Source: Planctomycetota bacterium (lineage in GTDB: Bacteria > Planctomycetota > GCA-002687715 > DRQF01). Taken from it: a stretch of DNA of 64,000 nt. A program made the translations under genes and the position numbers. This document shows, piece after piece, positions 8,332 through 62,367 of this stretch; positions within the stretch are counted from its first letter, which is position 1, and each line of letters starts with the position of its first letter. The notes beneath the pieces are model-generated. The model searched no databases. It saw only the letters and a program-made list of their open reading frames with translations, and had not been told where the DNA came from. The stretch is taken from NCBI GenBank assembly GCA_036479435.1, contig JAZGFI010000090.1, positions 14,846-78,845 on the forward strand. The letters are read 5' to 3'.

Positions 8332-8434
8332 GTTTCAGACCGGAATTCGTAGAGACAAACCAAAGTGTGGGTGTAGTGGTTCAGGTAGCGGTTGAGTTTG
8401 GGCTAGCGCAGGTGGCGAGCCCAGCGGAGGAGCT

Positions 8435-8818
8435 TTGGGCGAGGTTTTTCTAAGACCACGAGCTCGAGGATTTCGAGCTGGTGGCGTTCAGCTTGGCCCA
8501 CACCGGGCTCCCCTCCGGCATCGCTCGTCGAAGCTGAGGCGGCAGCGGGGCGAGAGCGCCGCGGCTCTCGCGGACTTTCTGCGTGGCTCTGGCGGCGCCA
8601 GCGCTGACCTGTCGAATCTAACTCCCGAGGAGCGCAGGTCGCTGCAGCGTTCTTGTGGTGACAACAACAAGCTCAACACCGATTACGACTTCTATAGCGC
8701 CGGTCTCGATAGAGTGACGGAACCCAACGTTACCGCATGGCCGAGTGCTGACGACATCCTGCGCGCTAAGAACGGTTTGTTCTTTGGCACGGTCGAAGAG
8801 CTGTTGAGACAATACTGA
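8435..8818 (+). CDS. Hypothetical protein (doubtful ORF between hflX and the terminator)
   Basis: Only ORF-track support. Composition is Arg/Gly-rich with no recognisable motif. Lies upstream of a bidirectional terminator at 8844-8912. Confidence 0.2.
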   Translation: MGEVFLRPRARGFRAGGVQLGPHRAPLRHRSSKLRRQRGESAAALADFLRGSGGASADLSNLTPEERRSLQRSCGDNNKLNTDYDFYSAGLDRVTEPNVTAWPSADDILRAKNGLFFGTVEELLRQY

Positions 8819-8843
8819 TACCGTTTTTCCTTGCTCGAAAGCT

Positions 8844-8912
8844 GCGGCCGAGCCTTGACTGCAAATGAAAAGACCCCTCGGCCGCCATGGCGATCGAAGG
8901 GTCTTTTGCTGT
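8844..8912. terminator. Nested hairpins (GCGGCCGAG/CTCGGCCGC and AAAGACCC/GGGTCTTT) followed by T-run; bidirectional terminator between convergent genes
   Basis: Perfect 9-bp and 8-bp inverted repeats read directly from the sequence. 'TTTTGCTGTTTG' follows on the + strand and 'TCATTT' on the - strand. Confidence 0.5.
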
Positions 8913-8934
8913 TTGCCAATTGGGCCGAGAGCGC

Positions 8935-10056
8935 TTAACCGTCTTCTTCGGGTTTCGGTGGTGACCAGTCGGTACCTTCCTTTTTCCACCAACTCCACCA
9001 TCGTTCGAGGCCTTTGCGGCGCCAGCGAACGCTCGAAGCGTGGCCCTCGGCGCCGACTTCTTGCCAGTCATAGATAGCGTCGCGCCAGTAGTCGTCGTAG
9101 TCGTCGCTGCGGCTCGCCGTTTCGGCCAGGGCCTGAACGATCGTCCAACCGCGCCGGGCATCATCCTTGTCGGCCAGGTCGAGACTCGTCATGGCGTTGA
9201 TGAGGTAAGGGATTGCCTTTTTGGGCATCGCGACGAGTGCGTCCTGTGCTTGGAGCGCCTTGCGGGTCGCATTGATGTCTTTGAGCGTCGTCACGAAGCC
9301 CTCAATGGCTTTCATTTCCTCTTCACTGGTCTCAGCGCTCGGGTCGAACGGTGTCAGCTCCATTGGGGGCTTCTTCGTTCGCTTTCTGGAATTTTTCTTG
9401 CTGGTCTTGGCAGCGTTGGTTTCACCCACGTCGTCGCCCTTGACCGCCGCTGTTTTTTCGCCATTTGACGCGGAGTCCGTTCCGCCTAGGAGGTCGCCGC
9501 TCTCATCGACGCCGAGGTCAGCACCACCTGTTTCTTTGTCCACCTCATTCTTGGCTGTGGTTTCCGTGGACTCGTTCGGCTCGTCGCCGCCTTGACTCCA
9601 AAGAAATGCGCCGACGACGCCCGCGACGACCAAGACTCCGAGGCTGCCGAGGATGAGGGCCATTGGCGCGCCATCGCCCTTGGGACGATGATGCGCGTGG
9701 CGACTAGAAACGCTGCCCTCTTGGACGCCCGTCTCACTTTTTTGGCGGTTTCGAGACCGACTGGCGCTGCGAGAGCTGCGACGGCTGGAACCTTTGCTCT
9801 TGGGGCGTTCGGCGGCCTCGCCACTTTCTTCGGCATGGTCACCGTTGCGGGATTTATGGCGCCTCGATTGAATAACGGGGGCTTTTCTTGCACCCGCGGC
9901 GGGCGACGGTTTGGCCAATCGGGATTCCCAGTCTTTGCCGAGCACCTTGCGCAGTACGAGGATCATGCCGCAGCCCGCGCAGTCGATTTTTCGAGTGCCT
10001 GCCACCGGAATGGCTTGGCTGTGTTTGCACTCGGGGCAGGTCAGTTTGTTACTCAC
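8935..10056 (-). CDS. Zinc-ribbon / single-TM protein with Lys-rich linker and conserved Trp-rich C-terminal domain (paralog A)
   Basis: N-terminus 'CPECKHS...CAGCG' is a 4-Cys zinc ribbon, followed by a long low-complexity S/R/K region and one TM helix (LILGSLGVLVVAGVVGAFLW). The C-terminal ~120 aa 'AIPYLINAMTSLDL...WTIVQAL...WWSWWKKEGTDW' is shared with the downstream gene. Confidence 0.6.
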   Translation of the reverse strand: MSNKLTCPECKHSQAIPVAGTRKIDCAGCGMILVLRKVLGKDWESRLAKPSPAAGARKAPVIQSRRHKSRNGDHAEESGEAAERPKSKGSSRRSSRSASRSRNRQKSETGVQEGSVSSRHAHHRPKGDGAPMALILGSLGVLVVAGVVGAFLWSQGGDEPNESTETTAKNEVDKETGGADLGVDESGDLLGGTDSASNGEKTAAVKGDDVGETNAAKTSKKNSRKRTKKPPMELTPFDPSAETSEEEMKAIEGFVTTLKDINATRKALQAQDALVAMPKKAIPYLINAMTSLDLADKDDARRGWTIVQALAETASRSDDYDDYWRDAIYDWQEVGAEGHASSVRWRRKGLERWWSWWKKEGTDWSPPKPEEDG

Positions 10057-10107
10057 TTGAGGTCTCCAAAGAAAGTCGAGAAAGGCGGCGGGGGAGAGGC
10101 AGTAAAC

Positions 10108-11376
10108 TCAGCCCTCGTTTTCCTCATCCTTTTTTAATTCGTCCCAGCTCTTTTCGTTGTAGTCGATGTCTTTTTTGACCCAGGTGGCGCCTTCAACTTT
10201 CCACCAACCAAACCACTGTCGCAGTGATTTGGTCCGTTCTTCGGGCGTTCCTTTGGTCATGCCGCCCATGCCGAGTCCCTGACGGGAGTTCCCCGGCGTG
10301 TAGCGAAAACTCTTGTTCGTCATTTCGCGCAGAGCCTGGATTAGCACCCAGGCCTTCTTCATGTCGGTCTTTTCGCTGTGATCTAGGGCGGCGATGGCGT
10401 TGAGAACGCCCGGGATCGCCAGCTTCCCGATTTGGATCATCTCGTCGCGAGACTGGTTGGCTTTTCTAATGTTGCCTTCGTCCAGGGTCGCGACGATGAG
10501 TTCGTTGACGCGCTTGCGTTCGGCCTCACCAGAGGCAATAGGCCAAGGCACGGGCGTGACATCGGCCTCGGGAGGGCCAACGAAACGGGGCTTTCTTTTC
10601 CTTTTTTCTTTGCCCAGTTTCGCACCGAAGTCTTTCTTTCGGCTCTTCTTTGAACCACCGGTTTTTAACTGCCGAAACTGCTCGTGTTGCACGCGCGTGA
10701 TGCGCCAAGCTTTGGGGTTTTGGGCGTCGATGAGTTCGTCGTAACCGTCCAAGAGCTCCGAGGTCAAGTTGATCTGAATCATCTTGCGGTTGCGGTCGTC
10801 TTTGACGAGAAAACCGACGAGGCCGTAGTCGCCGCGAACGACGTCGCGGTTCGGCGGGATGAGTCCTTTGTTGAAGTCCTCGATAAAGAACTTCTGCACG
10901 ACTTCGATGTACTCTTCGTCCATGATCTCAAAGAGATAGTCATTGATGAGCTTTCGTTTCCCGGCTTCATCGAGATTGGCGTAGCGTCTTTTTTCGCCCC
11001 AGTTGTTTTCGCCTGCAATGCGCCTGAACAAATAGTCCCAAGAGATGATCTTGGACATAATAGAGCTGTCATCGGTCGCCAAGGCCGTCATGAACTGGCC
11101 GGCGAGTTTTTCGGGAAGGGTACTCTCTTCGCCCGGTTTACGCGGTCTGTCTTTGCCGCCGTGATCAAGTTTTGGCGTTCGGTAGTTGTCAGAGGGATTC
11201 GAGTTCTTTGGCTTTTTGGGCTTATCTTCGCCGAGGGCGTAGATGACCATGAAAATGAAACCTACAAACAAGAGGGCGCCAAGGCTGACCTTGAGCGCGA
11301 GCGCATTGTCACGGTTTTTGGAAGAGTCCCCACGGTCGGGACTTTTGCGGCGGATTGCGGGGCGACGAGCGGCCAT
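10108..11376 (-). CDS. Single-TM protein with Lys-rich linker and the same Trp-rich C-terminal domain (paralog B)
   Basis: TM 'LGALLFVGFIFMVIYAL' and a lysine patch 'KKSRKKDFGAKLGKEKRKRKP'. C-terminus 'AIPGVLNAIAALDH...WVLIQAL...WFGWWKVEGATW' aligns with the C-terminus of 8935..10056. Start chosen at MAARRP (11376); the ORF extends to 11490. Confidence 0.55.
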   Translation of the reverse strand: MAARRPAIRRKSPDRGDSSKNRDNALALKVSLGALLFVGFIFMVIYALGEDKPKKPKNSNPSDNYRTPKLDHGGKDRPRKPGEESTLPEKLAGQFMTALATDDSSIMSKIISWDYLFRRIAGENNWGEKRRYANLDEAGKRKLINDYLFEIMDEEYIEVVQKFFIEDFNKGLIPPNRDVVRGDYGLVGFLVKDDRNRKMIQINLTSELLDGYDELIDAQNPKAWRITRVQHEQFRQLKTGGSKKSRKKDFGAKLGKEKRKRKPRFVGPPEADVTPVPWPIASGEAERKRVNELIVATLDEGNIRKANQSRDEMIQIGKLAIPGVLNAIAALDHSEKTDMKKAWVLIQALREMTNKSFRYTPGNSRQGLGMGGMTKGTPEERTKSLRQWFGWWKVEGATWVKKDIDYNEKSWDELKKDEENEG

Positions 11377-11577: not shown

Positions 11578-11621
11578 GACTGTCCTCTGTAGAGGACAGT
11601 CTGAGGTTCCCGGCGGGGACA
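11578..11621. promoter_or_regulatory. 11-bp inverted repeat GACTGTCCTCT-GT-AGAGGACAGTC plus third half-site GGGGACAGT in a divergent intergenic region; candidate operator
   Basis: Perfect palindrome read directly from the sequence. It sits in the ~400-bp divergent region between 11376(-) and 11786(+). Confidence 0.35.
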
Positions 11622-11785: not shown

Positions 11786-14029
11786 ATGCCCCGTCCACTC
11801 AATACCATGCTCGCTACTTTGGTCGTCAGCGCCGCTTTGCTCGTCGCTGCCGCTAGCGACCTTTCGGCCCAATCGCGAGGCCGGTCCGGTCTGGGTTCTT
11901 CGGGCGCCACGCCAAGGGTCGCTCCGCGCCGCGCCCCGACTCCCAGAGCCGCGCCCCGACGTGCTCCCGCTCCGCGTCGTCAGGCGACACCGCGACGTGC
12001 CCCGCGTCCGCAAGCTAGCCCTCGTCGAGCTCCGGCCCCGCGTCCGCAAGCTAAACCACGTCGTGCCCCGGCTCCCAGAGCCGCGCCTCGCCGCGCTCCC
12101 GCTCCTCGTCGTCAGGCTACGCCTCGCCGCGCTCCCGCTCCTCGTCGTCAGGCTACGCCGCGCCGCGCTCCGCGTCCGCAATCTACACCTCGTCGTGCTC
12201 CGGCCCCGCGTCCGCAAGCTAAACCACGCCGCGCTCCGGCCCCCAGAGTGGCCCCCCGTCGTGCCCCGGCCCCGCGCCGCCAAGCGACTCCTCGCCGTGC
12301 GCCAGCGCCCAAGGCAAGCCCGCGTCGCGCCCCAGCTCCCAAGAGTTCACCGCCCCGTCGCACCCGCGCTCCCAAACTTGCTCCTCGGGCCTCGGCTCCG
12401 AAGATCAAGTCCGGTACGCGCCGATCCAGCTCTACGTCATCGAAGTCTCGAGGCTTGACGCGTACCAACCCGCCGCGTCTGGGCCGCTCGAGTAAGTCCG
12501 GTGGCCGTTCGAGCGCCAAGGCTCCTAGGCGCCAAGCGCGTCCGAGCTACCGCAACCAAGGTGTCACCCGTTACAAGCCCGCGCGCAAAAATTCGACTTT
12601 CAAGGGAATCGTTAAGAACAAGAGCTCTCGTTCAAAAGTTGGTCGCCGCGGCGTCGCCGGCGGTCGCAGTCCGGTGACCGGTGTGCGCAAACCCGCGTCG
12701 CCTCGCCTTGGCAAGTCGGCCAATCGCGCAACGAACGCAAACCGTCGGGGGTCCGTCAACGGTCTCAAGCGGGTCACACCGCGACCAGGTCGCTTGCGCA
12801 GTATTGCTCCCACCAAAACTGCGGCTCCTCGTGTCGCGAAGAATCCCAAGCGCCTCCAAGGCCGCGGCTACTTGCCGCCAGCCGCGAGTGCCGGTGTTGT
12901 TGTCGCCAGCGGTCACTCCGGGAGTCACTCAAGTCACAGCTCAAGCCTGGGGCTCGGATTCTTCTTCGGCGGCGGTAGTTTCGGATTCAACCTGAGTTAT
13001 GGATCAGGGCACCATTACTACGACCACTACAACCCCTATGCGTTTAGCTACGGCTACGGTGGCGGCCCTTGGTACACGAACAGCTATCTCCATTCGGCGG
13101 GCTACCGGCCCTATTGGAATCGCCACTACTACGGCCACCGTTTCTACCGAGGTCATCGCAGCTATTTTGGATTCCGACGCTTCAGTCGCTTTCACTTCGG
13201 ATTCAACTACTACCACCCCTACTCGCACTACAGCCCCTACCCTTTGTATCGCTCGAGTTACTACGAGCCCTATTATGTGTCGAGCTATGCTGCGGCGTAT
13301 CCGGCCTACCGGACGTATCACTACGTTCGCCGGCCCGCCTACTATGCGAGCGCTTCTTATGGTTCGAGCTACGGCGGCTGTGTTGAGTCAGTCGACCCCT
13401 ATGTCGAAGAAGAAGTCGCCATCGACATCAGCGAACTCGACGACGAAGACTATGAACTGAGCATTGTCACCACTTCGTTGGAGCTCGCTCCCAGCATTTC
13501 TTTGGGACTGTCGGAGCCGTTCATCGACGACTTCGCGCGCGATCTCAGCTACGACGAGTATCTCGCCTACGGCGAGGAAGCTCTTTTTAATGGCGACTAT
13601 CTTTCTGCGGCCGAGGCTTTTCGCCGCGCGGTGAATGCTAAGCCGCAAGATGACTACGCCCTGTTCCAACTCGGTACAGCTTTGTTTGGTGCGGGTCGTT
13701 ACCAGCTCGCGGCACGCATGATAGAACTCGGCCTTGACCAGAATCCCGCGTGGTTACACCGCCGTTTCAGCCTCGAAGACGTCTTCGCCAGCGTGACTGA
13801 ATTCAAGGCTCGTACGCAGGCCTTAGAGGGCTACCTCATCGATAGAGAAGGTGACAGCGAAGCTCGATTCTTGTTGTCTTACGTCTACTACTTCTCGGGG
13901 AACCTCTTCGGCGCGCGCAGTAACTTGCGGTTGCTAAAGACTAGTGGGTCGAAGATCGGCCATGTCGATGCGATGGTCGACGAAGCCGAGCGCCGTTTGC
14001 TTCAATTGCGCGAGCAGTACCAAAAATAG
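11786..14029 (+). CDS. Secreted low-complexity protein: signal peptide, ~18 tandem PRRAPAPR(Q/A) octapeptide repeats, a Ser/Arg/Lys-rich region, a Tyr/Gly/His/Arg-rich segment, and a C-terminal TPR-like domain
   Basis: RBS AAAGGAGA precedes ATG 11786. Signal 'MLATLVVSAALLVAAASDLSAQ'. The 24-nt period repeat encodes PRRAPAPR/RAAPRRAP. 'YYxxYxPYxxSYGYGG' is a Y-rich low-complexity region. The C-terminus 'AEAFRRAVNAKPQDDYALFQLGTALFGAGRYQLAARMIELGLDQNP' is TPR-like. Confidence 0.7.
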   Translation: MPRPLNTMLATLVVSAALLVAAASDLSAQSRGRSGLGSSGATPRVAPRRAPTPRAAPRRAPAPRRQATPRRAPRPQASPRRAPAPRPQAKPRRAPAPRAAPRRAPAPRRQATPRRAPAPRRQATPRRAPRPQSTPRRAPAPRPQAKPRRAPAPRVAPRRAPAPRRQATPRRAPAPKASPRRAPAPKSSPPRRTRAPKLAPRASAPKIKSGTRRSSSTSSKSRGLTRTNPPRLGRSSKSGGRSSAKAPRRQARPSYRNQGVTRYKPARKNSTFKGIVKNKSSRSKVGRRGVAGGRSPVTGVRKPASPRLGKSANRATNANRRGSVNGLKRVTPRPGRLRSIAPTKTAAPRVAKNPKRLQGRGYLPPAASAGVVVASGHSGSHSSHSSSLGLGFFFGGGSFGFNLSYGSGHHYYDHYNPYAFSYGYGGGPWYTNSYLHSAGYRPYWNRHYYGHRFYRGHRSYFGFRRFSRFHFGFNYYHPYSHYSPYPLYRSSYYEPYYVSSYAAAYPAYRTYHYVRRPAYYASASYGSSYGGCVESVDPYVEEEVAIDISELDDEDYELSIVTTSLELAPSISLGLSEPFIDDFARDLSYDEYLAYGEEALFNGDYLSAAEAFRRAVNAKPQDDYALFQLGTALFGAGRYQLAARMIELGLDQNPAWLHRRFSLEDVFASVTEFKARTQALEGYLIDREGDSEARFLLSYVYYFSGNLFGARSNLRLLKTSGSKIGHVDAMVDEAERRLLQLREQYQK
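11900..12330 (+). repeat. Intragenic 24-bp tandem repeat (about 18 copies, imperfect) encoding Pro/Arg/Ala octapeptides
   Basis: The visible periodicity is ccgcgccgcgctcccgctcctcgtcgtcaggctacgcct... A 187-aa antisense ORF (11720..12283) is an artefact of this repeat. Confidence 0.8.
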
Positions 14030-15907: not shown

Positions 15908-17911
15908 ATGCCTGCGTTCAAGATTGAGAGCGAGTATCAGCCGACGGGCGACCAACCCGCGGCGATTGCTGCCTTGTGCAAAGGCATCGAAAAAGGCGAG
16001 CGCGAGCAGACGCTCCTGGGGGTAACCGGATCAGGTAAGACCTTTACCATCGCTCACGTCATTCAAAAAGTGCAGCGACCAGCGCTCGTCTTAGCTCCGA
16101 ACAAAACCTTGGCGGCCCAGCTTTTCACCGAGTTCAGGGATCTTTTCCCCGATAATGCCGTTGGCTATTTTGTTTCCTACTACGACTATTTCCAGCCGGA
16201 GGCCTACGTTCCCTCTAGCGACACCTACATCGCAAAAGACTCGGCGATCAACGATCAGATCGACCGACTTCGGCATGCTGCAACTCATTCCCTCTTGACG
16301 AGGCGCGATGTCATCATCGTCGCGTCCGTGTCTTGTATCTACGGCATTGGTTCGCCTTCTTCCTACGCGACCATGAGTGTCGAGATCCGGCAGGACGAAG
16401 AGATGGATCGGGACGAACTGCTGCGGCGACTGATCACCATGCAGTATGTGCGCAATGATTTTGCGCCAAAGCGGGGGAGTTTTCGTGCCCGCGGTGATGT
16501 TGTTGAGGTCTTCCCGGCCTATTCCGATGATCGGATCCTGCGCGTGGAGCTTTTTGGCGATACGGTCGAGCAGATTGTCGAGATTGACGCCGTCACCGGT
16601 GAGGTTCTGCAAGATCTCCGCGCCATTGTGATTCACCCTGCCAGCCACTACGTGACGCCCCAGGAAAATCTCAAGCGGGCCATCGTCACCATCGACGCCG
16701 AAAAGGAAGAAGCGGTCGAGGCTTTTCGAAAACGCGGACGTCTGCTCGAAGCGCAGCGCCTGGAGATGCGAACCAACCTCGATCTTGAGCTTCTTCAGGA
16801 ACTCGGCACCTGTTCGGGGATTGAGAACTACAGCCGTCATTTGGATGGCCGCCAGCCCAGCACACCTCCGGCGACACTCTTGGACTTTTTTCCCGACGAC
16901 TTCATCACTTTCGTGGACGAGAGCCATGTCACCGTGCCGCAATCTGGTGGCATGTATAAAGGCGACCGCAGCCGCAAATCGACCCTGGTGGAACACGGGT
17001 TCCGGCTGCCGAGTGCTCTCGACAATCGCCCGCTTATGTTCGAGGAGTTTGAAAAGCGACGGAAACAAATCATCTACGTCTCCGCGACCCCCGGCGACTA
17101 CGAAGTGGCTCAATCCAAGGGTGTTACCGCCGAACAGATCATTCGACCGACGGGCCTTCTAGACCCCGAAGTGGAGATTCGCCCGGCGACCGGTCAGATC
17201 GATGACCTCTTGGGGCAGCTTCATCGAGAGATCGAACGCAAGGGCAAAGTCTTGGTGACGTCGCTGACGAAAAAGATGGCGGAGAACATCACCGAGTACT
17301 ATCGAGACCTTGGCCTACGCATCCGGTACTTGCACAGCGACATTGAGACTTTGGAACGTCACGCGATCATTCGCAGCCTGCGGCTCGATGAGTTCGATGT
17401 ACTCGTTGGCATCAACTTGCTGCGCGAGGGTTTGGACATCCCTGAAGTGACCTTGGTCGCCATCTTGGATGCAGACAAGGAGGGGTTTTTGCGGTCTCGG
17501 CGTTCTTTGATCCAGACCATTGGGCGGGCGTCCAGAAATGTCGATGGCCGTGTTATTTTGTTTGCCGACAAAAAGACCGACTCGATGAAGGCGGCGCTCG
17601 ACGAAACGGATCGGCGGCGCGAGATTCAACGGGCGCACAACAAAAAGCATGGCATCACGCCCACAACGATCAAAAAGAACGTGCAAGACTTGCTCGAGTC
17701 GGTGTTCAATGCGGACTACGTCACGATTGATATCTCGACCGACAAAGTGGAGACCAGCCGGAACCCGAGGGACCGTGAAAAGATCCCTCAGATTATCGAG
17801 GAGTTGCGCGAGCGCATGTTTAAGTATGCGCAAGAGACCAAGTTTGAGGATGCTGCCGACCTGCGGGATCAGATCAAACGCTTGGAGAAAGCGCAGCTGG
17901 AAGAGGTCTGA
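15908..17911 (+). CDS. uvrB: Excinuclease ABC subunit B
   Basis: '[14 protein letters not shown]', Walker A '[10 protein letters not shown]', the beta-hairpin region '[10 protein letters not shown]', helicase C motifs, and the C-terminal UVR domain '[15 protein letters not shown]'. Confidence 0.95.
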
Positions 17912-19794
17912 TGCCTGCTCTTGAGTTCGAGCTAGCCAAAGTCAAGAATTTCCCGACCGAACCCGGCTGCTACATCTTCACTGGCAAAAAAAACGAGATC
18001 CTCTACGTCGGCAAAGCGGTCAATTTGCGCAGTCGCGTACGTTCTTATTTCAACAAGAATCAAGACGACCGTTTGGTCACGCGCTATCTGCACCTTTATG
18101 CCGCCCGCATGGACTTCGTGGTGACGGGCACTGAAAAAGACGCTCTGATCCTCGAAAATAGTCTGATCAAAAAGCACAAGCCTCGCTTCAACGTGAGGCT
18201 GACCGATGACAAGACCTACTTTAGTCTTCGGATTGATCTCAACGAGCCTTGGCCTTGGCTCACGATTGTTCGCAAGCGTCGAAAAAAAGAAGGCGTGCTC
18301 TTTTTCGGCCCCTATCCTTCGGCTTCGGCGTGTCGGGGCACCCTGCAGTTTCTAAACAAGATCTTTCCGCTGCGAACTTGCAAAGACTCTGTGCTTCTCA
18401 ATCGCATTCGGCCCTGCATTAGTTACGAGATCAAGCGTTGTGTCGCCCCCTGTGTCGACTACATCGAACGCGCTGAGTACATGAAGATTGTCGAGCAGAC
18501 CTTGCAGTTTCTGAAGGGCAAGAACCAAGGGCTAATTCGCGACCTGAAGCAGAAGATGAAGGAGGCTTCGGAGTCTTTGGATTTCGAGGCGGCCGCGCTC
18601 TTGAGAGATCGCATTCAAGCCATCAACACAACCATCGAGAACCCGCGAGTCACCAAAAATATCAACCGTTCCTTTGATGTCGTGGGGCTGTACACAACTC
18701 CCGAAGAGGTGTCGCTAACGGTCTTGTTCATTCGCGACGGCGTCCTGTCTTCGAGCGCTTCCTTTCGTTTTGAGCCTTTGTTCGAAATCGATGAGTTGCT
18801 GAGGACTTTTCTCGGTCAGTTCTACGGCGAGCACCGTGCCGCACCCGAAGAGGTCATCTTGCCCGAGATACCTGCGGACTCGGAGCTGATTGAATCGACC
18901 CTGTCGGATCGGGAGCACCGGCGCGTTGAGTTGATCGTTCCGGAGCGTGGCGAGAAGAAGAAGTTGCTGCGACTCGCCGAGCGAAACGCCGAGCACGCTT
19001 GGATTCAGCGCAACGAAGACCAGAACAAGACTCAGCAGACTCTCCAAAAGCTTCGCCACGATTTGCAGCTCGTGCGCCTTCCGCGCCGAATCGAGTGTTT
19101 TGATGTTTCCAACTTGATGGGGCGTCATGTCGTTGCGTCTTGCGTGGCCTTTACGGCGGGGCGGCCGGACAAGGCGCGCTATCGGCGCTACAAGATTCGC
19201 ACGGTCGAAGGTCAGGACGATTTCGCCAGCATGGCGGAGATCTTGGAGCGTCGCCTGCTGCGAGGCCTGAAAGAGGATGATCTTCCCGACCTCATGGTTA
19301 TTGACGGCGGCAAGGGGCAGTTGAACGCAGTCAATGAAGTTTTTCGCCGGCTCAAGATCGACCGCGTGGACCTGATATCCTTGGCGAAAGCTCGAGAGGA
19401 AAAGGTCGGGACTTCGGTGCTTCGCAGCAAAGAGCGGGTCTTCAAGCCGGGTGAAGAGATACCTATTGTGTTGAATCAAAGCTCCGACGAGATGATGCTG
19501 CTGATTCAGGTACGCAACGAGGCCCACCGTTTTGCAATCACTTATCATCGTCACCTTCGCGGCAAGGCACAGATGACCAGCATCCTGGAGATGGTGCCGG
19601 GCATCGGCAAACAGAGAGCGCGTGCCCTTTTGAAAAACTTGGGATCGATCGCGGCTGTCCGCGAAGCTGATTCGGAAACCTTGGAAGCGTTGCCTGGGAT
19701 CACGCCACAGATCATTGAGGGCTTAAGGCAGTTTTTTGAAACCAAAGGAAACCTACCCGAAGACCCGAGCCTTCGCGAAGATGATGAAGGCTGA
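17911..19794 (+). CDS. uvrC: Excinuclease ABC subunit C
   Basis: GIY-YIG 'GCYIFTGKKNEILYVGKAVNLRSRVRSYF', the UVR domain 'FEAAALLRDRIQAI', and the RNase H-like plus (HhH)2 C-terminus. The start overlaps the uvrB stop (ATGA). Confidence 0.95.
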   Translation: MPALEFELAKVKNFPTEPGCYIFTGKKNEILYVGKAVNLRSRVRSYFNKNQDDRLVTRYLHLYAARMDFVVTGTEKDALILENSLIKKHKPRFNVRLTDDKTYFSLRIDLNEPWPWLTIVRKRRKKEGVLFFGPYPSASACRGTLQFLNKIFPLRTCKDSVLLNRIRPCISYEIKRCVAPCVDYIERAEYMKIVEQTLQFLKGKNQGLIRDLKQKMKEASESLDFEAAALLRDRIQAINTTIENPRVTKNINRSFDVVGLYTTPEEVSLTVLFIRDGVLSSSASFRFEPLFEIDELLRTFLGQFYGEHRAAPEEVILPEIPADSELIESTLSDREHRRVELIVPERGEKKKLLRLAERNAEHAWIQRNEDQNKTQQTLQKLRHDLQLVRLPRRIECFDVSNLMGRHVVASCVAFTAGRPDKARYRRYKIRTVEGQDDFASMAEILERRLLRGLKEDDLPDLMVIDGGKGQLNAVNEVFRRLKIDRVDLISLAKAREEKVGTSVLRSKERVFKPGEEIPIVLNQSSDEMMLLIQVRNEAHRFAITYHRHLRGKAQMTSILEMVPGIGKQRARALLKNLGSIAAVREADSETLEALPGITPQIIEGLRQFFETKGNLPEDPSLREDDEG

Positions 19795-47352: not shown

Positions 47353-47426
47353 GGGCGATTAGCTCAGCTGGTTAGAGCGCTTCGTTCACACCGAAGAGGT
47401 CACAGGTTCGAATCCTGTATCGCCCA
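47353..47426 (+). tRNA. tRNA-Val (anticodon CAC)
   Basis: Manual fold: acceptor GGGCGAT/ATCGCCC, D-arm GCTC-AGCTGGTTA-GAGC, anticodon stem CTTCG/CGAAG with loop TTCACAC, T-arm ACAGG-TTCGAAT-CCTGT, and discriminator A. Sits immediately upstream of an integrase. Confidence 0.85.
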
Positions 47427-56877: not shown

Positions 56878-57252
56878 GAGAATTGGGCGTCAGGAGCGAT
56901 GCCTCAATCACTGATTAGCGCTGACAATTGGTGGCGGCAATGTGCCTGACTGGGCTTGTCCGAAGATGTCCAGGGAATTCAGCTCCTGCTCTTCGTTGTC
57001 GGAGAAATGTAGCGATCGATCGGCATGCCGGTTGGCAACACAAGCGCAGTGTGTTCTTGACTGTGCAGCTAAATGACTAGCAAGTCATGAGATCGTTGTG
57101 ATCAGATTTGTCGACGAATGGGCTGTCACAAATGCGCGCTCCGCAGCGAATGAGATCGACAGGGTAGATGATAAAGACCAAGGGATTCCCATCCGACCAA
57201 TTCCCTTGCAAGCGATGATTAGGCGAGACGTCCAGTCGGCATTGCCCAAAAC

Positions 57253-58179
57253 CTACAGCTGTTTCGTTCCGTGGATCGTTGACGGCGCATCGACGAATTT
57301 TAGCCCATTCCCCTGGACAAAAATCTTCCATCGATGCTCATATTGGGCGATCGAAAGGATGTTGAAGTCGTCAGTTTGCCCGGGTTGTCCATCTTCAATC
57401 CCGTCGCCGCATTTCACTCCGCCAAGATCGGTGAGCACGTACCGGTTATGAAATCGTTCACCGCCTGGGTCATCGAGCCAGCGACTAAATTTAACCGTGC
57501 AGCCAATAGGGAGTTTCTTGGCGAATTCGGACGCTTGTTGTTCAAAGAAAGCAAAGGTGCCTGTACGTTCACCGTGCACGTGGAGCATAAGACTCACTTC
57601 GCGACATCCAACCCGCGTGGCGACGACCGATAACTCCTCCAACAAGATGCGGCAGCGTGCCTTTTCAAACGCGAAATGTGGATCAACTATGTGTATTTCT
57701 TTGGCTTCAACTAGAAAGGAACTCAGAGCTTTGACTATTTTCGAAGCGGAGCGCTCAACAACGTCTCCGTTTTCCAAATCCCAAAGTGGATTAGCGAGAA
57801 CACCCAAGTCCTTGGCAAGTAGAAGTTTTGAGAAATTCTCGGCCGACCGCATGGCAATGACCCCTCGGTATGATGCTCGGTCATACTCTGATCGAGCGTT
57901 CTCAAGCCACGAGATTTCCGGGTCATATGTCTGGGCCACCCTTCTGGCACGTGGTCGACCAAGCATCTTGCAGAGTTCGGTTAATCGAGTCTTATCAAAT
58001 TGTGACAAGTCCATTTCCAACGCGAGAGCATGCACAGATCTCACCCACTTGGAGTATTTCGGGATTTCTATAATCACTCGAGGCGTCCCGATTCCAAATT
58101 TGTCGACGATGTATCGAAAGTTGGATGGTTTTGCCCAATCAATGCAAACTTCAGGTTCGACAGCGAAGCAGTGGATCAC
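57253..58179 (-). CDS. Hypothetical protein, partner of the upstream ABC-type ATPase (1-nt stop/start overlap TAGTG); candidate effector of a two-gene defense module
   Basis: GTG start sharing G58179 with the ATPase TAG stop. No HNH or clear TOPRIM seen by eye; 'CFAVEPEV' and 'VLTDLGG' are weakly TOPRIM-like at best. Confidence 0.45.
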   Translation of the reverse strand: MIHCFAVEPEVCIDWAKPSNFRYIVDKFGIGTPRVIIEIPKYSKWVRSVHALALEMDLSQFDKTRLTELCKMLGRPRARRVAQTYDPEISWLENARSEYDRASYRGVIAMRSAENFSKLLLAKDLGVLANPLWDLENGDVVERSASKIVKALSSFLVEAKEIHIVDPHFAFEKARCRILLEELSVVATRVGCREVSLMLHVHGERTGTFAFFEQQASEFAKKLPIGCTVKFSRWLDDPGGERFHNRYVLTDLGGVKCGDGIEDGQPGQTDDFNILSIAQYEHRWKIFVQGNGLKFVDAPSTIHGTKQL

Positions 58180-59648
58180 TATATGAGTTCCCGCATTCGT
58201 TCATCGAAAAACCCGTCGGGCCAGTTGTCAAGGAATTCACCATCTTCAGAGATTCTCAACTCCTTGATGCAAACGTCCCCGTCAATCTGATCGACATAGA
58301 GAACCGCAACATCTTCAGTGGTAACCGGATCCGTTTCAAACGGCAGTTCACCTTCCGATGTCTCTCGAATTCGACGTAACAACCTCAGGATCAAATGTTC
58401 ACTGTGGGTTTCAATGAGAAACTGCCTTTCAGAACATTGGCTGAGAAACAGATCACCCAATGCGACTTGCATCCTAGGATGAATGTGCAACTCAGGCTGT
58501 TCGATCGCGACGATTGTCACAATTTCTCGCGTGCCCAAGGGTGTATCCATAGTCGGTGACAGTGCGGCAACAACAACCGGGACTACTTGACCAATTCCCT
58601 CGCCAAGATCAGCAGGAGACAGGTCCAGAAGTTTCGTCTCATCAAAAACCACAAGCCGACCGATTTCCGGAAGATGATCAGTGAGCGCATCAAAATTCTC
58701 GTCGAGTTCACCATTCATGGCAGCCGCGCGGAGCCGGTCGAACATCGCACCATCGAACTCACGCAGGGTTTTCCAGACAATTTGATATCCGGTGTCCAGT
58801 CTTGACTCGTGACTCAGCCACTTGTTTGCATCTTTTCGAATAGTTTCGTCAATTGAAAGCAGGTCCCATGCGCCGAGCCCGCACGCCCATCTGCTTTCAT
58901 CCAAACGCCTTGGTGATCGATAATTGCGATCAGGTACTTTGCGAATTGGTCCAACATATCTGAAGGTTGAGAGCTCGTCTCTCAACAGATCACATGCGCC
59001 GGTCAACAAATCCCCAGCAGACCGATAATAGTTTTCAACGTCTTCCGAATCCTCGGACTCCTCGAACTGCACGCTGCATCCGACCTCTGGAAGCGCCATC
59101 CGATTCCCAATTGAGCAAGCCACTTTGTCGGTGAGCACGATTGGCAAGTCACCTTCACCTTCGTACCCCAAGATTGGATTCGCGAGATTCAGATTCGTCA
59201 ACCAGACATTGGAACCACCTGAGCTGCAACCGAACTCTGCAAACGGGTCTCCGTTGAACCCAACGGCCAGCCTGTCAACAATTGGCCGTGCAAGGGGAAT
59301 GCTCCAACAAACCCGAATCTCAACACTAATTGTCTCGAAACTAAACTCGGCCGACTCCAATTCAACTCCCTCTGACGGCGCAAATTCAAACCCTACAGTG
59401 ATTGAATTAGTGAGGTCGTGATTGTTGACGTAGCTCTGATATCCGCCAAGGTCTAAGTCGCCACCGAGGCGTGTGCGCCCAACGTCCGGATCACCAAGTT
59501 CAAGCATCGCTTGCGCATAATGAACTGCATGCATTACGGTGCTCTTCCCAGCACTATTTGGACCGAACAACAGAGTGATTGGCTTAAGACTCAATTCCTG
59601 ACGGTCACTAATGCCCTTGAAGTTCTCTATGGAGATTCGACGAATCAT
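58179..59648 (-). CDS. ABC/SMC-type ATPase of the AAA_15/AAA_21 (OLD/PtuA/AriA/GajA-like) class
   Basis: N-terminus 'MIRRISIENFKGI...ITLLFGPNSAGKST' is a Walker A in the typical defense-ATPase context. C-terminus 'VAIEQPELHIHPRMQ' (Walker B/D-loop) and 'FLIETHSEHLI' (H-loop). Start MIRRIS lies 3 nt after the hsdS stop. Confidence 0.8.
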   Translation of the reverse strand: MIRRISIENFKGISDRQELSLKPITLLFGPNSAGKSTVMHAVHYAQAMLELGDPDVGRTRLGGDLDLGGYQSYVNNHDLTNSITVGFEFAPSEGVELESAEFSFETISVEIRVCWSIPLARPIVDRLAVGFNGDPFAEFGCSSGGSNVWLTNLNLANPILGYEGEGDLPIVLTDKVACSIGNRMALPEVGCSVQFEESEDSEDVENYYRSAGDLLTGACDLLRDELSTFRYVGPIRKVPDRNYRSPRRLDESRWACGLGAWDLLSIDETIRKDANKWLSHESRLDTGYQIVWKTLREFDGAMFDRLRAAAMNGELDENFDALTDHLPEIGRLVVFDETKLLDLSPADLGEGIGQVVPVVVAALSPTMDTPLGTREIVTIVAIEQPELHIHPRMQVALGDLFLSQCSERQFLIETHSEHLILRLLRRIRETSEGELPFETDPVTTEDVAVLYVDQIDGDVCIKELRISEDGEFLDNWPDGFFDERMRELI

Positions 59649-59650
59649 GT

Positions 59651-60835
59651 TCAGAGTTCTCCTTTGTATGCGCATTGAGAAAGCGAGTCAAATAACTCAG
59701 CAGCGCGTTTTCTGTGGAGCTCGAAGTTCCGTTTCGCAGAGCGCGCATTGTCATGCAAGGCTAAGAAATCTTCTTGTAAGGGCTTGGGAGGCGTGATTAT
59801 CTCTAATCCACCAAGGCCTCGAGTGTTGATATTGTAGTTCCCTGCAGTCGTCTTTGCTTCGCGAATCAAACGAGACCTAAAAGTTGGAAATGACACAACG
59901 CTCTGTATGAACTGGCTTGAGGTGGGTGAGCCTGGTGTGAGGCGCGCTCGTATCAAGTATGAGGCAAAAAGCGCCTCTCGCTTGTCATCGAAAACCGCAC
60001 ACCGACCGATGTGATCAGGATTGCCATTCGTTCTGACAAAGAGAAGATCGTCTTGCTGAAGAAGGACTCGATTCGCCTCAGCTTGTTCAAGCGTTGTGTA
60101 TTTTAGGTCAACCCAGTTGATTCCACCGTTCTTTATGTTGGGGATGCGAAGAACGGGGCGAGACCCTTCTATTTCGGTCAATGCGCATTTCTTTGAAGTG
60201 CCATAGCGCATCTCAGACGTTAAGCTGTCCAGGCGGCAAGAATCCCACCCCTTGGGATTTTTTACAGGATCACCGAACATATTGTGGAAGGCTGAGCGGA
60301 GGAAATCTTCGGTTAGGGCAATGGACTCTTGCCGTTTTCGTCTGATTGCGTCGGCTTTGTCGAGGATGTCGGCGATGCGCCTTTGTTCAGGGAGAGATGG
60401 GAGGGGGACCGAAAGCGTTGCGAGTCTCGAGAAAGAAATCGCCTTCCGTCGATGAACGGACCCATTCCCTAAGAGTTCATAAGTTGCAAGTGCTTCCGGC
60501 GATTTCAGAAATCGAACAAGGTACTCAGGCAAAACCTCATTAGTGTCAACTTCGAACCCAGTATACATCGGACTAATAATGCAGTCTTCTGGGCCAATAC
60601 CAATTGAGCCTTCGTCAAGGTGAATCGTTGCGTAAGCTATCTCGTTTTTGTGTATCTCTTTGTAGCCTTTGGTATCTCGACTGAATACCTGTTTTTTAAA
60701 GTACTCGAGGCTCGGAACGAAGCCACTATGTTTTGTGACCGCGTAGACGGGCAACTTAGATCCCGTCTTCGCACGCCGCTTGACTTCTCGCGAAACGCTT
60801 CCCAACAGGACTCTCGAAAAGGATCGATCCTTCAA
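59651..60835 (-). CDS. hsdS: Type I restriction-modification system specificity subunit
   Basis: Two target-recognition domains separated by conserved helical spacers ('[28 protein letters not shown]' and '[34 protein letters not shown]'). Confidence 0.85.
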
Positions 60836-62367
60836 GACAATAGTCCCTCTAATTCATCGAGGTCTGAAGTGATTTCTCTTTCCAACATCCTAATTTTCTC
60901 AATAATGATTCGCGGCTTTTCAGTCTTGGCTTCTTCGTAGACGACTTCCTTGTATCGATTCATGGAAAGGTCGTAATTCTCATCTCTAATTTCGTCAGCC
61001 GACACAAAGAAAGCCTGCGCCTTTCGATCATTTAGTTTCTTGGCGTCTCTTTTTCGCCATTGCTCAACAACATCGGGCAAATCATTTTCTTCAACCGGTC
61101 CAAGCGGTGTTTTTTCTTTGGATGCCTCCGCACGTTTGTCATCTAGAGAATAACCATCCCGCTTAACGTCATAGAAGAAAACGTTGTCTGTTTTTCCACC
61201 TTTTGTGAACACGAGGATGGCCGTTGACACACCGGCATAGGGCTTGAAAACGCCGGACGGCAAGGAGATAACCGCTTCAAGTTGGTTTTCGTCCACGAGC
61301 AGTTTGCGCAGCGATTTGTGGGCACCAGATGAATTGAAAAGAACGCCGTCGGGAACGATGGTAGCACTCCGACCGCCCAACTTAAGCATCTGTAAAATAA
61401 GCCCAACGAATAGTAACTCCGTCTTCTTAGTTTTGACTTTCCGAATCAGCGAAGGATGCACATCGGCATAGTCAAGGCTACCCTTGAACGGTGGATTCGC
61501 AAAGATGACGTCAAAAGCGTTCTCTGCAAACTGTGGAAACTTCTCAGGAAACGAATTACTCAGGGTATCTCGGTAGTGAATCCCTGGATTGTCGACTCCA
61601 TGAAGCATCATGTTCATAGCCGCAATGCGCAGCATCGTCACATCAAAGTCGAAACCATGAAACATGTCTTTTTGTATGTGCTCGCGATAGGGCTCGAGCT
61701 TGTCGCCTGTGAAAATGATGCTGCCGTCCTCAGCTTTGATTTGTCCGGCTTTGGATGTATGAGTTTCAAGAAGATATTGCATGGCCCCAACTAAGAAACC
61801 TGCGGTGCCACAGGCAGGGTCAGCAATTGTTTCGTCTGGTTTTGGTTCAAGTAGCTCAACCATTAGCCGAATGATGTGTCTTGGAGTTCTGAACTGCCCA
61901 TTGATGCCGGCTGTAGTCAACTTGCCAAGCAAATACTCGTAGAGGTCACCTTTGGTGTCGCCGGAGGTGAGAGGAAGTTCATCGACCATGTTGACTGCCT
62001 GAACCAAGAGGCTCGACTTCTGAATCATCAGCTGAGCATCAGCCATGTACTCACTGAAAGTGTCTCCTTCGCTGAGATTCCGTAGATGTTTGAATACGTT
62101 GTCACGAACCATCGGCATCATTTTCTCACCGCTGAGGTGCTTGAAGCTCGACCAACGAAACTCCTGCTCATCTTTAGCGAACACTGGCTGAAACTGCTTC
62201 TTTGATCTTGCGGCACGTATCTCGCTGGCAGACTCTTTGACGTCGAGCAAGCGGATGAACATCAGAAATGAGATCTGCTCAATGACAGTGAGGGGATTGG
62301 TAATCCCGCCTGTCCAAAAGGCTTCCCATAGTTTGTCAATCTTGCTTCTAAGTGGACCAGTAATCAT
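60832..62367 (-). CDS. hsdM: Type I restriction-modification system DNA methyltransferase subunit (N6-adenine)
   Basis: HsdM N-domain, motif I '[12 protein letters not shown]', and motif IV 'NPPF'. 4-nt overlaps with both hsdR and hsdS. Confidence 0.9.

What the first reader, a model, noticed from the sequence alone, without database searches (positions are those of the whole stretch)
8935..11376. Tandem paralogs sharing a novel Trp-rich C-terminal domain (WxxWWK(K/V)EG(T/A)W)
Two adjacent minus-strand genes end with the same ~120-aa domain ('AIP..LNA...LD....D...W..(V/I)QAL … W(W/F)(S/G)WWK.EG..W'). Each is preceded by a TM helix and a poly-Lys/Arg patch. The first additionally has an N-terminal 4-Cys zinc ribbon. 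This looks like a lineage-specific membrane-anchored module of unknown function that duplicated in place.
Basis: seen in the sequence. Interest (0 to 1): 0.55.

Follow-up and report, generated by a model that had tools for sequence, protein, structure and literature searches.

The report
Conserved planctomycete membrane-protein pair, HEAT-like Trp domain
Two adjacent genes encode single-pass membrane proteins that share a real but uncatalogued HEAT-repeat-like, tryptophan-capped domain. The pair is an old, conserved two-gene operon of uncultured Planctomycetota, not a recent local duplication, and its function is still unknown.

Summary
Gene A (8935-10056, minus, 373 aa) and gene B (10108-11376, minus, 422 aa) share a C-terminal domain: 31% identity over 149 columns, E=5e-17, and z=31 against shuffles. 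The TM helices, the Lys/Arg patches and the 4-Cys zinc ribbon in A are all present.

The interpretation needs correcting.
- **Not an orphan.** An exhaustive HMMER search finds 177 clusters (50% identity). Every one with a name is a hypothetical protein from a Planctomycetota MAG. Pfam and NCBIfam have no model for the domain.
- **Common layout.** Most members have a zinc ribbon, one TM helix, an NTF2-like domain, a basic patch and then the HEAT-like/Trp domain.
- **Old pair.** B followed by A recurs in 11 loci. In 9 of them B lacks the zinc ribbon and A lacks the NTF2-like domain, a complementary loss.
- **Structure.** AlphaFold2 with the family alignment (pLDDT 84.7) gives a four-helix C-terminal domain. 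Its first half aligns to genuine HEAT/PBS-lyase repeats (hhalign probability 96%).
- **Neighbour.** A secreted protein with Pro/Arg repeats, a Tyr-rich region and TPR repeats is the conserved divergent neighbour.

Best guess, inferred only: a ZitP/GltJ-like envelope-spanning adaptor pair. Interest is moderate.

The parts
10108..11376 (-). Gene B, 422 aa: short basic N-terminus, one TM helix, NTF2-like domain, Lys/Arg patch, HEAT-like/Trp C-terminal domain, acidic tail
   Evidence: ORF. AGGAG 5 nt upstream of the ATG. Identical to the deposited 422-aa hypothetical protein V3W41_05305. Orthologues start at the same place. AF2 mean pLDDT 84.7.
11236..11310 (-). B transmembrane helix (residues about 23-47)
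   Evidence: Hydropathy peak; AF2 helix 23-47.
10645..11118 (-). B middle alpha+beta domain (residues 87-244), NTF2-like
   Evidence: AF2 pLDDT >94, helices followed by a curved sheet. Only weak Foldseek matches to MlaC, SnoaL, ketosteroid isomerase and VirB8 (best E=0.025, probability 0.91). Weak profile hit to a designed NTF2-type binder, 8uqf, E=0.02. No Pfam hit.
10582..10656 (-). B Lys/Arg patch (residues 241-265)
   Evidence: Net charge +10 in residues 241-270. A similar patch is seen in orthologues.
10174..10569 (-). B copy of the shared C-terminal domain (residues 270-401), with WFGWW at 10201-10215
   Evidence: BLASTP with A, E=5e-17. Family HMM 1.6e-35. AF2 helices 284-297, 303-329, 336-353, 378-395 at pLDDT about 97. 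hhalign probability 96% to HEAT repeats for the first half. W388, W391 and W392 are conserved in 97-98% of 143 members.
8935..10056 (-). Gene A, 373 aa: zinc ribbon, basic disordered linker, one TM helix, acidic linker, Lys/Arg patch, HEAT-like/Trp C-terminal domain, acidic tail
   Evidence: ORF. GGAG 7 nt upstream of the GTG. The deposited call is 343 aa from Met31. Orthologues begin with the zinc ribbon.
9952..10056 (-). A zinc ribbon (residues 1-35; C7, C10, C26, C29)
   Evidence: CPEC-x15-CAGC in the sequence. Only weak generic zinc-ribbon hits for A alone. The family profile matches the GltJ zinc ribbon 7zok at E=1.4e-5. Relatives hit Zn_ribbon_4/5 and TIGR02098.
9598..9666 (-). A transmembrane helix (residues 131-153). 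The upstream flank is strongly basic (9667-9951) and the downstream flank acidic (9409-9597), so N-in/C-out.
   Evidence: Hydropathy and charge per 30-aa block.
9370..9408 (-). A Lys/Arg patch (residues 217-229)
   Evidence: Sequence KTSKKNSRKRTKK.
8959..9363 (-). A copy of the shared C-terminal domain (residues 232-366), with WWSWW at 8986-9000
   Evidence: Family HMM 1.5e-32.
8872..8903 (.). GC-rich hairpin flanked by A-run and T-run, 32 nt past A's stop: a likely bidirectional terminator closing the B-A operon
   Evidence: Read directly from the sequence. The consensus scan did not list it.
11786..14029 (+). Divergently transcribed neighbour and candidate partner: signal peptide, Pro/Arg tandem repeats, Tyr/Gly-rich region, acidic stretch, TPR domain
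   Evidence: Sub-threshold TPR hits in Pfam. Consensus TPR and PEX5 TPR in PDB sequences. DNA tandem repeats at 11933-12333. Orthologues with the same layout lie divergent from the B-type gene in L003, L004, L005, L007, L011 and L013, and cut by contig ends in L006 and L008.

Best explanation
Shown: A and B are ancient paralogues of an uncharacterised Planctomycetota family of single-pass inner-membrane proteins. The commonest layout, and probably the ancestral one, is a cytoplasmic MJ0042-type zinc ribbon, one TM helix, a periplasmic NTF2-like domain, a polybasic patch, and a C-terminal four-helix domain. That last domain consists of HEAT/PBS-lyase-like repeats closed by a helix carrying the near-invariant W-[FWY]-x-W-W motif. 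After a tandem duplication, the downstream copy (A) kept the zinc ribbon and lost the NTF2-like domain. In most lineages the upstream copy (B) kept the NTF2-like domain and lost the zinc ribbon. They are transcribed as one B-A operon.

Inferred: the two act together as a heteromeric adaptor that spans the inner membrane, in the manner of ZitP or GltJ. A's zinc ribbon and basic disordered linker dock a cytoplasmic partner. B's NTF2-like domain and the two HEAT-like/Trp domains form a periplasmic protein-binding platform. The most plausible periplasmic client is the co-conserved, divergently encoded secreted protein with Pro/Arg repeats, a Tyr-rich region and TPR repeats. Binding could run through the Trp/acidic-tail surface to the Pro/Arg repeats, or through the acidic C-termini to the TPR domain.
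For: - **Homology and family size:**
- **Architecture:**
- **HEAT-like nature:** hhalign probability 96% to a protein scoring 3e-231 on Pfam HEAT_2. CpcF 5n3u_B at E=0.013. 6veh_A at E=0.09.
- **Zinc ribbon type:** 7zok (GltJ) at E=1.4e-5. Zn_ribbon_4/5 and TIGR02098 in relatives. GltJ and ZitP zinc ribbons are cytoplasmic protein-docking modules of membrane proteins (PMC11135422, PMC5182065).
- **Old operon with complementary loss:** B-then-A on one strand in the window, L001-L004, L009, L012, L013, L014, L016 and L022. B lacks the ribbon and A has it in 9 of these 11. Single genes that keep both ribbon and NTF2-like domain occur in L005-L008, L010, L011 and L017.
- **Operon signals:** 51-nt B-A gap, Shine-Dalgarno sites, and a hairpin after A.
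- **Shared compartment and co-conservation with the neighbour:**
Against:
- The spacing of the conserved residues (R381, A384, W388, W391/392) fits a buried helix face, so the tryptophans may be structural and not a ligand site.
- Some genomes carry a single gene near this locus, so the heteromer is not obligatory for the family.
- The Pro/Arg-Tyr-TPR neighbour is confined to one subclade. It is absent near the pairs in L012, L014, L016 and L022.
- Acidic tails occur in only 44 of 140 members.
- Shared gene order may simply reflect relatedness.
Confidence: 0.4

Rival explanations
1. Envelope anchor. The polybasic patch plus the Trp-rich, Arg-flanked terminal helix bind an anionic surface such as phospholipid head groups, lipopolysaccharide or peptidoglycan. 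The proteins would then tether or space envelope layers rather than bind a specific protein.
For: A Lys/Arg patch lies directly before the domain in both paralogues and in close orthologues. Trp, Phe and Arg are concentrated in the last helix. This chemistry is typical of membrane-interface segments (general knowledge).
Against: AF2 places the Trp helix inside a compact, very confident (pLDDT about 97) four-helix bundle. The conserved residues follow a buried-face spacing. The first half is a HEAT-type protein-binding repeat.
Confidence: 0.2
2. Independent sensors or anti-sigma-like signal transducers. Each paralogue would separately relay a periplasmic signal to a cytoplasmic factor through its N-terminus, with no hetero-complex.
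For: The layout (cytoplasmic zinc module, one TM helix, periplasmic domain) resembles zinc-binding anti-sigma factors (general knowledge). A histidine kinase is the divergent neighbour of the short subfamily in L019 and L021.
Against: No sigma factor or regulator sits next to the pair in the window or in syntenic loci. The ribbon is CxxC...CxxC of the MJ0042 type, not the HxxxCxxC anti-sigma motif. B has almost no cytoplasmic part (26 residues), so it could not signal alone.
Confidence: 0.1
3. Lipid or small-molecule handling. B's NTF2-like domain would be an MlaC/SnoaL-like ligand pocket, and the HEAT-like/Trp domain would merely dock it.
For: The top Foldseek hit is MlaC (7vr6, probability 0.91, E=0.025), followed by SnoaL and ketosteroid-isomerase folds.
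Against: The matches are weak (no hit at E<=0.001; target-normalised TM-score 0.35-0.55). VirB8-type scaffolds score in the same range. A lacks this domain altogether. No transporter genes are linked in the window or its syntenic loci.
Confidence: 0.1
4. One reading: a genome-specific orphan module that duplicated recently in place.
For: The word-index searches found only self-hits for both proteins.
Against: The exhaustive profile search finds 177 relatives. The same pair is present in 10 other loci from different species-level genomes. A and B are only 31% identical, while B is 38-49% identical to its orthologues.
Confidence: 0.02

Closest known systems
ZitP (Caulobacter crescentus): zinc ribbon (Pfam zinc_ribbon_5), linker, TM helix, periplasmic DUF3426 (PMC5182065, PMC5182063)
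   Same: The layout is nearly the same as gene A: an N-terminal cytoplasmic 4-Cys ribbon (residues 1-37 in ZitP, 1-35 here), a disordered linker of about 70-95 aa, one TM helix (106-127 in ZitP, 131-153 here), and a C-terminal periplasmic domain. Zinc ribbons of the same general type match the family profile.
   Different: The periplasmic domain is HEAT-like with a Trp cap, not DUF3426 (no Pfam hit). The phylum is different. Any link to PopZ is unknown. Here the protein comes as a conserved paralogue pair.
GltJ / AgmX (Myxococcus xanthus gliding machinery): zinc ribbon, linker, GYF domain, membrane anchor, periplasmic module (PMC11135422; PDB 7zok)
   Same: It is the best solved-structure match of the family's N-terminal ribbon (E=1.4e-5). 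In both cases a membrane protein uses the ribbon and a disordered linker as a cytoplasmic docking or switch module.
   Different: No GYF domain was detected. The periplasmic part is different. No mglA/mglB or glt genes were found in the neighbourhood examined.
Bacterial HEAT / PBS-lyase HEAT-like repeat proteins (Pfam HEAT_2, HEAT_PBS; for example CpcE/F)
   Same: The first roughly 55 columns of the shared domain, including the motif G-K-P-A-I-P-x-L-L-N-x-L, align to genuine HEAT repeats (hhalign probability 96%). CpcF 5n3u_B scores E=0.013. The predicted fold is all-helical.
   Different: There are only about two repeats. No Pfam HEAT model scores even at E<=10. The second half (L-R-x-I-T-G-x-x-F-G-Y-x-P ... 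R-R-W-F-G-W-W) has no counterpart in those families. The location is periplasmic and membrane-tethered.
VirB8 / MlaC-type periplasmic NTF2-like domains
   Same: B's middle domain is predicted as an alpha+beta cone that follows a TM anchor, as in VirB8.
   Different: Only weak structural scores (E>=0.025), no sequence-model hit, and no type IV secretion or Mla genes nearby.

Membership tests
HEAT / PBS-lyase HEAT-like repeats (Pfam HEAT_2, HEAT_PBS) | Sequence matches the curated repeat models | tested here: not met
   No HEAT model is listed for A, B, their isolated domains or the family consensus at E<=10.
HEAT / PBS-lyase HEAT-like repeats (Pfam HEAT_2, HEAT_PBS) | Profile-level homology to genuine repeats, and an antiparallel helix-pair fold | tested here: met
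   hhalign probability 96% (pairwise E=3.4e-9) over columns 2-55 against P0060, which scores 3e-231 on HEAT_2. 5n3u_B scores E=0.013. AF2 gives four helices at pLDDT about 97. This applies to the first half of the domain only.
MJ0042-type zinc ribbon (Pfam Zn_ribbon_4/5, TIGR02098) | CxxC ... CxxC with four conserved cysteines | tested here: met
   A has C7, C10, C26 and C29. 19 of 25 A-type and 52 of 68 B-type relatives have the motif.
MJ0042-type zinc ribbon (Pfam Zn_ribbon_4/5, TIGR02098) | Score above the curated model cut-off | tested here: inconclusive
   A itself gets only weak hits to other zinc-ribbon models (S27e, IS1595; E 0.017-0.15) and not to Zn_ribbon_4/5. The relative P0029 passes TIGR02098 (24.9 against a cut-off of 20.9). 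Others fall below the cut-off. The family profile hits 7zok at E=1.4e-5.
ZitP family | C-terminal DUF3426 domain | tested here: not met
   No DUF3426 hit in A, B or relatives.
ZitP family | The zinc ribbon binds PopZ | not testable with these tools
   Needs binding assays. The presence of a popZ gene in this genome was not examined.
GltJ-type ZnR-GYF proteins | A GYF domain next to the zinc ribbon | tested here: not met
   No GYF hit. A's linker is a basic Ser/Arg-rich low-complexity stretch.
NTF2-like superfamily (B middle domain) | Alpha+beta cone fold matching solved NTF2-like structures | tested here: inconclusive
Zinc-binding anti-sigma factors | HxxxCxxC motif and an adjacent ECF sigma gene | tested here: not met
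   The motif is absent. The neighbours are lexA, nadB, hflX, the TPR gene, a DUF1573 gene and uvrBC.

The most novel reading that the evidence does not exclude
The B-A pair and the divergently encoded secreted protein (Pro/Arg repeats, Tyr-rich region, TPR repeats) form a previously unrecognised Planctomycetota-specific envelope system. A membrane-spanning heterodimer, ZitP/GltJ-like on the cytoplasmic side, would position or nucleate a low-complexity, possibly matrix- or condensate-forming periplasmic protein. This could contribute to polarity, budding or envelope architecture in a phylum whose division and envelope organisation are poorly understood.
Probability: 0.12. Interest if true: 0.7.

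Novelty: new variant of a known kind. Interest (0 to 1): 0.38.

Why it matters
The work defines an unannotated protein family of at least 177 clusters at 50% identity, all labelled 'hypothetical'. The family has a confident structural model, a diagnostic motif (G-K-P-A-I-P-x-L-L-N ... R-R-W-F-G-W-W) and a conserved gene partner. It is also a clean case of tandem duplication followed by complementary domain loss, which predicts a hetero-complex.

Zinc-ribbon membrane adaptors organise cell poles and motility machines in Caulobacter and Myxococcus. A planctomycete counterpart would offer a way into envelope and polarity biology in a phylum whose known members lack FtsZ. It also corrects the deposited start codon of gene A, which removes half of the zinc ribbon.

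Tried and rejected
- **Word-index protein searches** with A, B and the 145-sequence alignment returned essentially only self-hits. In the third search only the 8000 candidates sharing the most words were scored, probably low-complexity matches.
- **Single-sequence AF2 of B** was useless (pLDDT 42).
- **Pfam and NCBIfam** on the isolated domains and the family consensus gave nothing meaningful. A Ferritin hit at E=0.0014, below the curated cut-off, was judged spurious.
- **The search for related loci** with the full alignment failed for lack of a conserved stretch. A 12-sequence subset worked.
- **SOS control:** I looked for a palindrome shared by the lexA, uvrB and B upstream regions and found none.
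- **Acidic C-terminal tail** as a family-wide motif was rejected: only 44 of 140 members have one.
- **YTV-type cell-wall motifs** in the neighbour: no Pfam hit.
- **P0133** (a repeat protein with 'EEGTDWS') and **P0113** (a secreted two-module protein lacking the Trp motif) were judged marginal relatives and not pursued.
Full report
**1. Observation**

The window carries two adjacent minus-strand ORFs.
- Gene A is 8935-10056 (373 aa). It starts at a GTG with GGAG seven bases upstream.
- Gene B is 10108-11376 (422 aa). It starts at an ATG with AGGAG five bases upstream. A longer TTG-initiated reading of B (460 aa) is not supported by orthologue N-termini or by the deposited record.

BLASTP aligns A 221-364 with B 256-399 at 31% identity over 149 columns, E=5e-17. 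The Smith-Waterman score is 184, against 29.9 +/- 5.0 for 2000 shuffles of A's domain (z=31).

The single hydrophobic helix, the Lys/Arg patch before the domain and A's CPEC-x15-CAGC are all present. The public annotation starts A at Met31 (343 aa), which removes the first CxxC. Orthologues begin with the intact ribbon, so the GTG start is preferred.

**2. Not an orphan**

Word-index searches of 5.8 billion proteins found only the two proteins themselves. The source is a Planctomycetota MAG, on a contig of 3.99 Mb.

An exhaustive HMMER search with a two-sequence profile of the shared domain found more:
- 177 cluster representatives at E<=1e-3.
- 39 at E<=1e-10.
- In nearly all, the domain is C-terminal in proteins of about 340-360 or 400-460 aa.

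Ten clusters that were looked up carry no name other than 'hypothetical protein'. A degenerate DNA scan of one genome per GTDB species returned 21 loci. Nineteen are labelled Planctomycetota or a lineage within it, and two are unclassified bacteria. Pfam and NCBIfam have no model for the domain or for B's middle region.

**3. Architecture of the family**

Among 143 aligned members:
- 68 have the long 'B-type' layout, with about 225-280 residues between the TM helix and the domain. 52 of these have an N-terminal CxxC...CxxC.
- 25 have a slightly shorter middle region.
- 25 have the 'A-type' layout, with only about 75-140 residues between the TM helix and the domain. 19 of these have the zinc ribbon.
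- 25 are fragments.

The ribbons of relatives hit Zn_ribbon_4/5 and TIGR02098 (MJ0042 type), one of them above the curated cut-off. The family profile matches the solved zinc ribbon of Myxococcus GltJ/AgmX (7zok, E=1.4e-5).

A's flanks obey the positive-inside rule strongly. The stretch before the TM helix is basic and the stretch after it is acidic. Together with a cytoplasmic zinc ribbon, this places the C-terminal domains in the periplasm.

**4. Structure**

With the 145-sequence alignment, AlphaFold2 models B at mean pLDDT 84.7:
- TM helix at 23-47.
- An alpha+beta domain at 87-244 (pLDDT >94).
- A disordered basic linker.
- A four-helix C-terminal domain at 284-395 (pLDDT about 97).

Foldseek against PDB returned only weak hits, all NTF2-like, for the middle domain. 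These include MlaC, SnoaL, ketosteroid isomerase and VirB8 (best E=0.025). The other fold libraries were unavailable.

For the shared domain, three lines point to HEAT/PBS-lyase-type repeats in its first half:
- The two-sequence profile weakly hits a HEAT protein (6veh_A, E=0.09).
- The family profile hits phycocyanobilin lyase CpcF (5n3u_B, E=0.013).
- hhalign of the 143-member domain alignment against a genuine HEAT protein gives 96% probability over columns 2-55, centred on G-K-P-A-I-P-x-L-L-N-x-L. That protein is P0060, which scores 3e-231 on Pfam HEAT_2.

The second half (L-R-x-I-T-G-x-x-F-G-Y-x-P, a variable loop, then R-R-W-F-G-W-W) has no detected relative. The most conserved positions are P322, L349, W388, W391 and W392 (97-99%), then A309 (92%). 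The spacing R381-A384-W388-W391/392 suggests one helix face. My inference is that the tryptophans largely form the packing face of a capping helix.

**5. The pair is old and conserved**

A family HMM run on six-frame ORFs of the fetched loci finds a B-type gene immediately followed on the same strand by an A-type gene. This holds in L001, L002, L003, L004, L009, L012, L013, L016 and L014 (the last cut by the contig end), besides the window. It also holds in L022, a member of the distant WFAWW subfamily.

- B's domain is 38-49% identical to its close orthologues but only 31% identical to A.
- A's close relatives sit together in a neighbour-joining tree.
- In 9 of the 11 paired loci the B copy lacks the zinc ribbon while the A copy has it. 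In L012 and L014 both have it.
- Loci with a single gene and adequate flanks (L006, L007, L011, L017) keep ribbon and NTF2-like domain in one protein.

This is the signature of duplication followed by complementary domain loss. Such a pattern usually means the products work together. In the window, the 51-nt B-A gap, the ribosome-binding sites and a GC-rich hairpin 32 nt after A's stop (8872-8903) fit one transcription unit.

**6. Neighbourhood**

The window order is lexA, nadB, hflX, then A and B on the minus strand, then a 747-aa gene (plus strand), a DUF1573 gene, uvrB and uvrC. This order is shared with L003, L004, L013 and part of L009.

The most consistent neighbour is the divergently transcribed 747-aa gene (11786-14029). 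It encodes a signal peptide, about 200 residues of Pro/Arg tandem repeats, a Tyr/Gly-rich stretch (up to 27 Tyr per 100 residues), an acidic segment and a TPR domain.
- Orthologues in L003, L004, L005, L007, L011 and L013 keep this layout, although the repeat unit itself differs. L006 and L008 have it cut by contig ends.
- It also accompanies single-gene loci.
- It is absent near the pairs in L012, L014, L016 and L022.

uvrB-uvrC lie beside the B-type gene in ten loci, including the distant L012, L017 and L022. No palindrome shared with the lexA promoter was found.

**7. Mechanism**

Steps that are shown:
- Homology.
- Family membership.
- Domain order and predicted folds.
- Topology, by charge and by the zinc ribbon.
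- Operon conservation.
- Complementary domain loss.
- Co-conservation with the secreted neighbour in one subclade.

Steps that are inferred:
- A and B form a hetero-complex.
- It acts like ZitP (zinc ribbon, TM helix, DUF3426; the ribbon binds PopZ; PMC5182065) or GltJ (the ribbon and linker act as a switch; PMC11135422). That is, it would be a membrane adaptor coupling a cytoplasmic partner to a periplasmic assembly.
- The HEAT-like/Trp domains are the periplasmic protein-binding surface.
- The Pro/Arg-Tyr-TPR protein is the client.

I put about 0.4 on the adaptor-pair model as a whole and much less on the specific client. The rivals are:
- An anionic-surface anchor through the polybasic patch and Trp helix (0.2).
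- Independent sensors (0.1).
- Lipid handling by the NTF2-like domain (0.1).
- The recent-orphan reading, which is refuted.

**8. Comparison and novelty**

The building blocks are all known: an MJ0042-type ribbon, an NTF2-like cone and HEAT-like repeats. The combination is not described in Pfam, NCBIfam or in the literature I could search. Neither is the Trp-capped second half of the domain, nor the paired operon.

It fails the defining features of ZitP (no DUF3426) and GltJ (no GYF domain). It is therefore an analogue of those families and not a member. I rate it a new variant of a known kind, of moderate interest. It is a well-delimited family with a testable hetero-complex prediction, but there is no functional evidence yet.

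Noticed in passing
window 11786-14029 (+): An unusual secreted protein: signal peptide, about 200 aa of Pro/Arg tandem repeats (APRRAPAPRRQATPRR; DNA periods of 18-168 nt), a Tyr/Gly/His-rich stretch (up to 27 Tyr per 100 aa), an acidic DPYVEEE segment and a C-terminal TPR domain. Orthologues keep the composition but not the repeat sequence.
   Followed up: partly
window 11578-11601: A perfect 11+11 inverted repeat with a 2-nt spacer (GACTGTCCTCT GT AGAGGACAGTC) in the roughly 410-bp divergent intergenic region between gene B and the Pro/Arg-TPR gene. It is a candidate operator. Its conservation in other loci was not checked.
   Followed up: no
window 8332-8934: A 600-bp gap between hflX and gene A, where orthologous loci have about 100 bp. 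It holds a 127-aa plus-strand ORF (8435-8818) with no Pfam hit, and a hairpin (8872-8903) that could terminate transcription from both strands.
   Followed up: partly
window 9967-10056: The deposited annotation of gene A starts at Met31 (343 aa) and so omits the first CxxC of the zinc ribbon. The GTG at 10056, preceded by GGAG, and the orthologue N-termini support the 373-aa form.
   Followed up: yes
window 15908-19794; L003-L005, L007, L011-L013, L017, L022: uvrB-uvrC lie next to, or one to two genes from, the B-type gene in ten loci. This includes subfamilies where B-type identity to the window falls to about 25%. It may be functional linkage or just a stable gene order.
   Followed up: partly
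window about 48000-64000; tRNA at 47353-47426: G+C drops from about 0.58 to 0.48-0.52 right after a tRNA gene, with a GC-skew excursion at 46-48 kb. This could be an integrated island.
   Followed up: no
L006, L007, L010, L011, L016 (downstream of the B-type gene): An Alginate_exp-like outer-membrane barrel occurs in L006, L007, L010 and L011. A squalene-hopene-cyclase-repeat protein occurs in L006, L007, L011 and L016. Both lie a few kb downstream of the B-type gene, and neither is present in the window.
   Followed up: partly
P0113 (362 aa) and P0133 (279 aa): P0113 is a secreted protein with two copies of the HEAT-like first half of the domain but no Trp motif. P0133 is a four-fold repeat protein that matches only the second half (EEGTDWS). 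They are possible distant relatives or chance hits.
   Followed up: no
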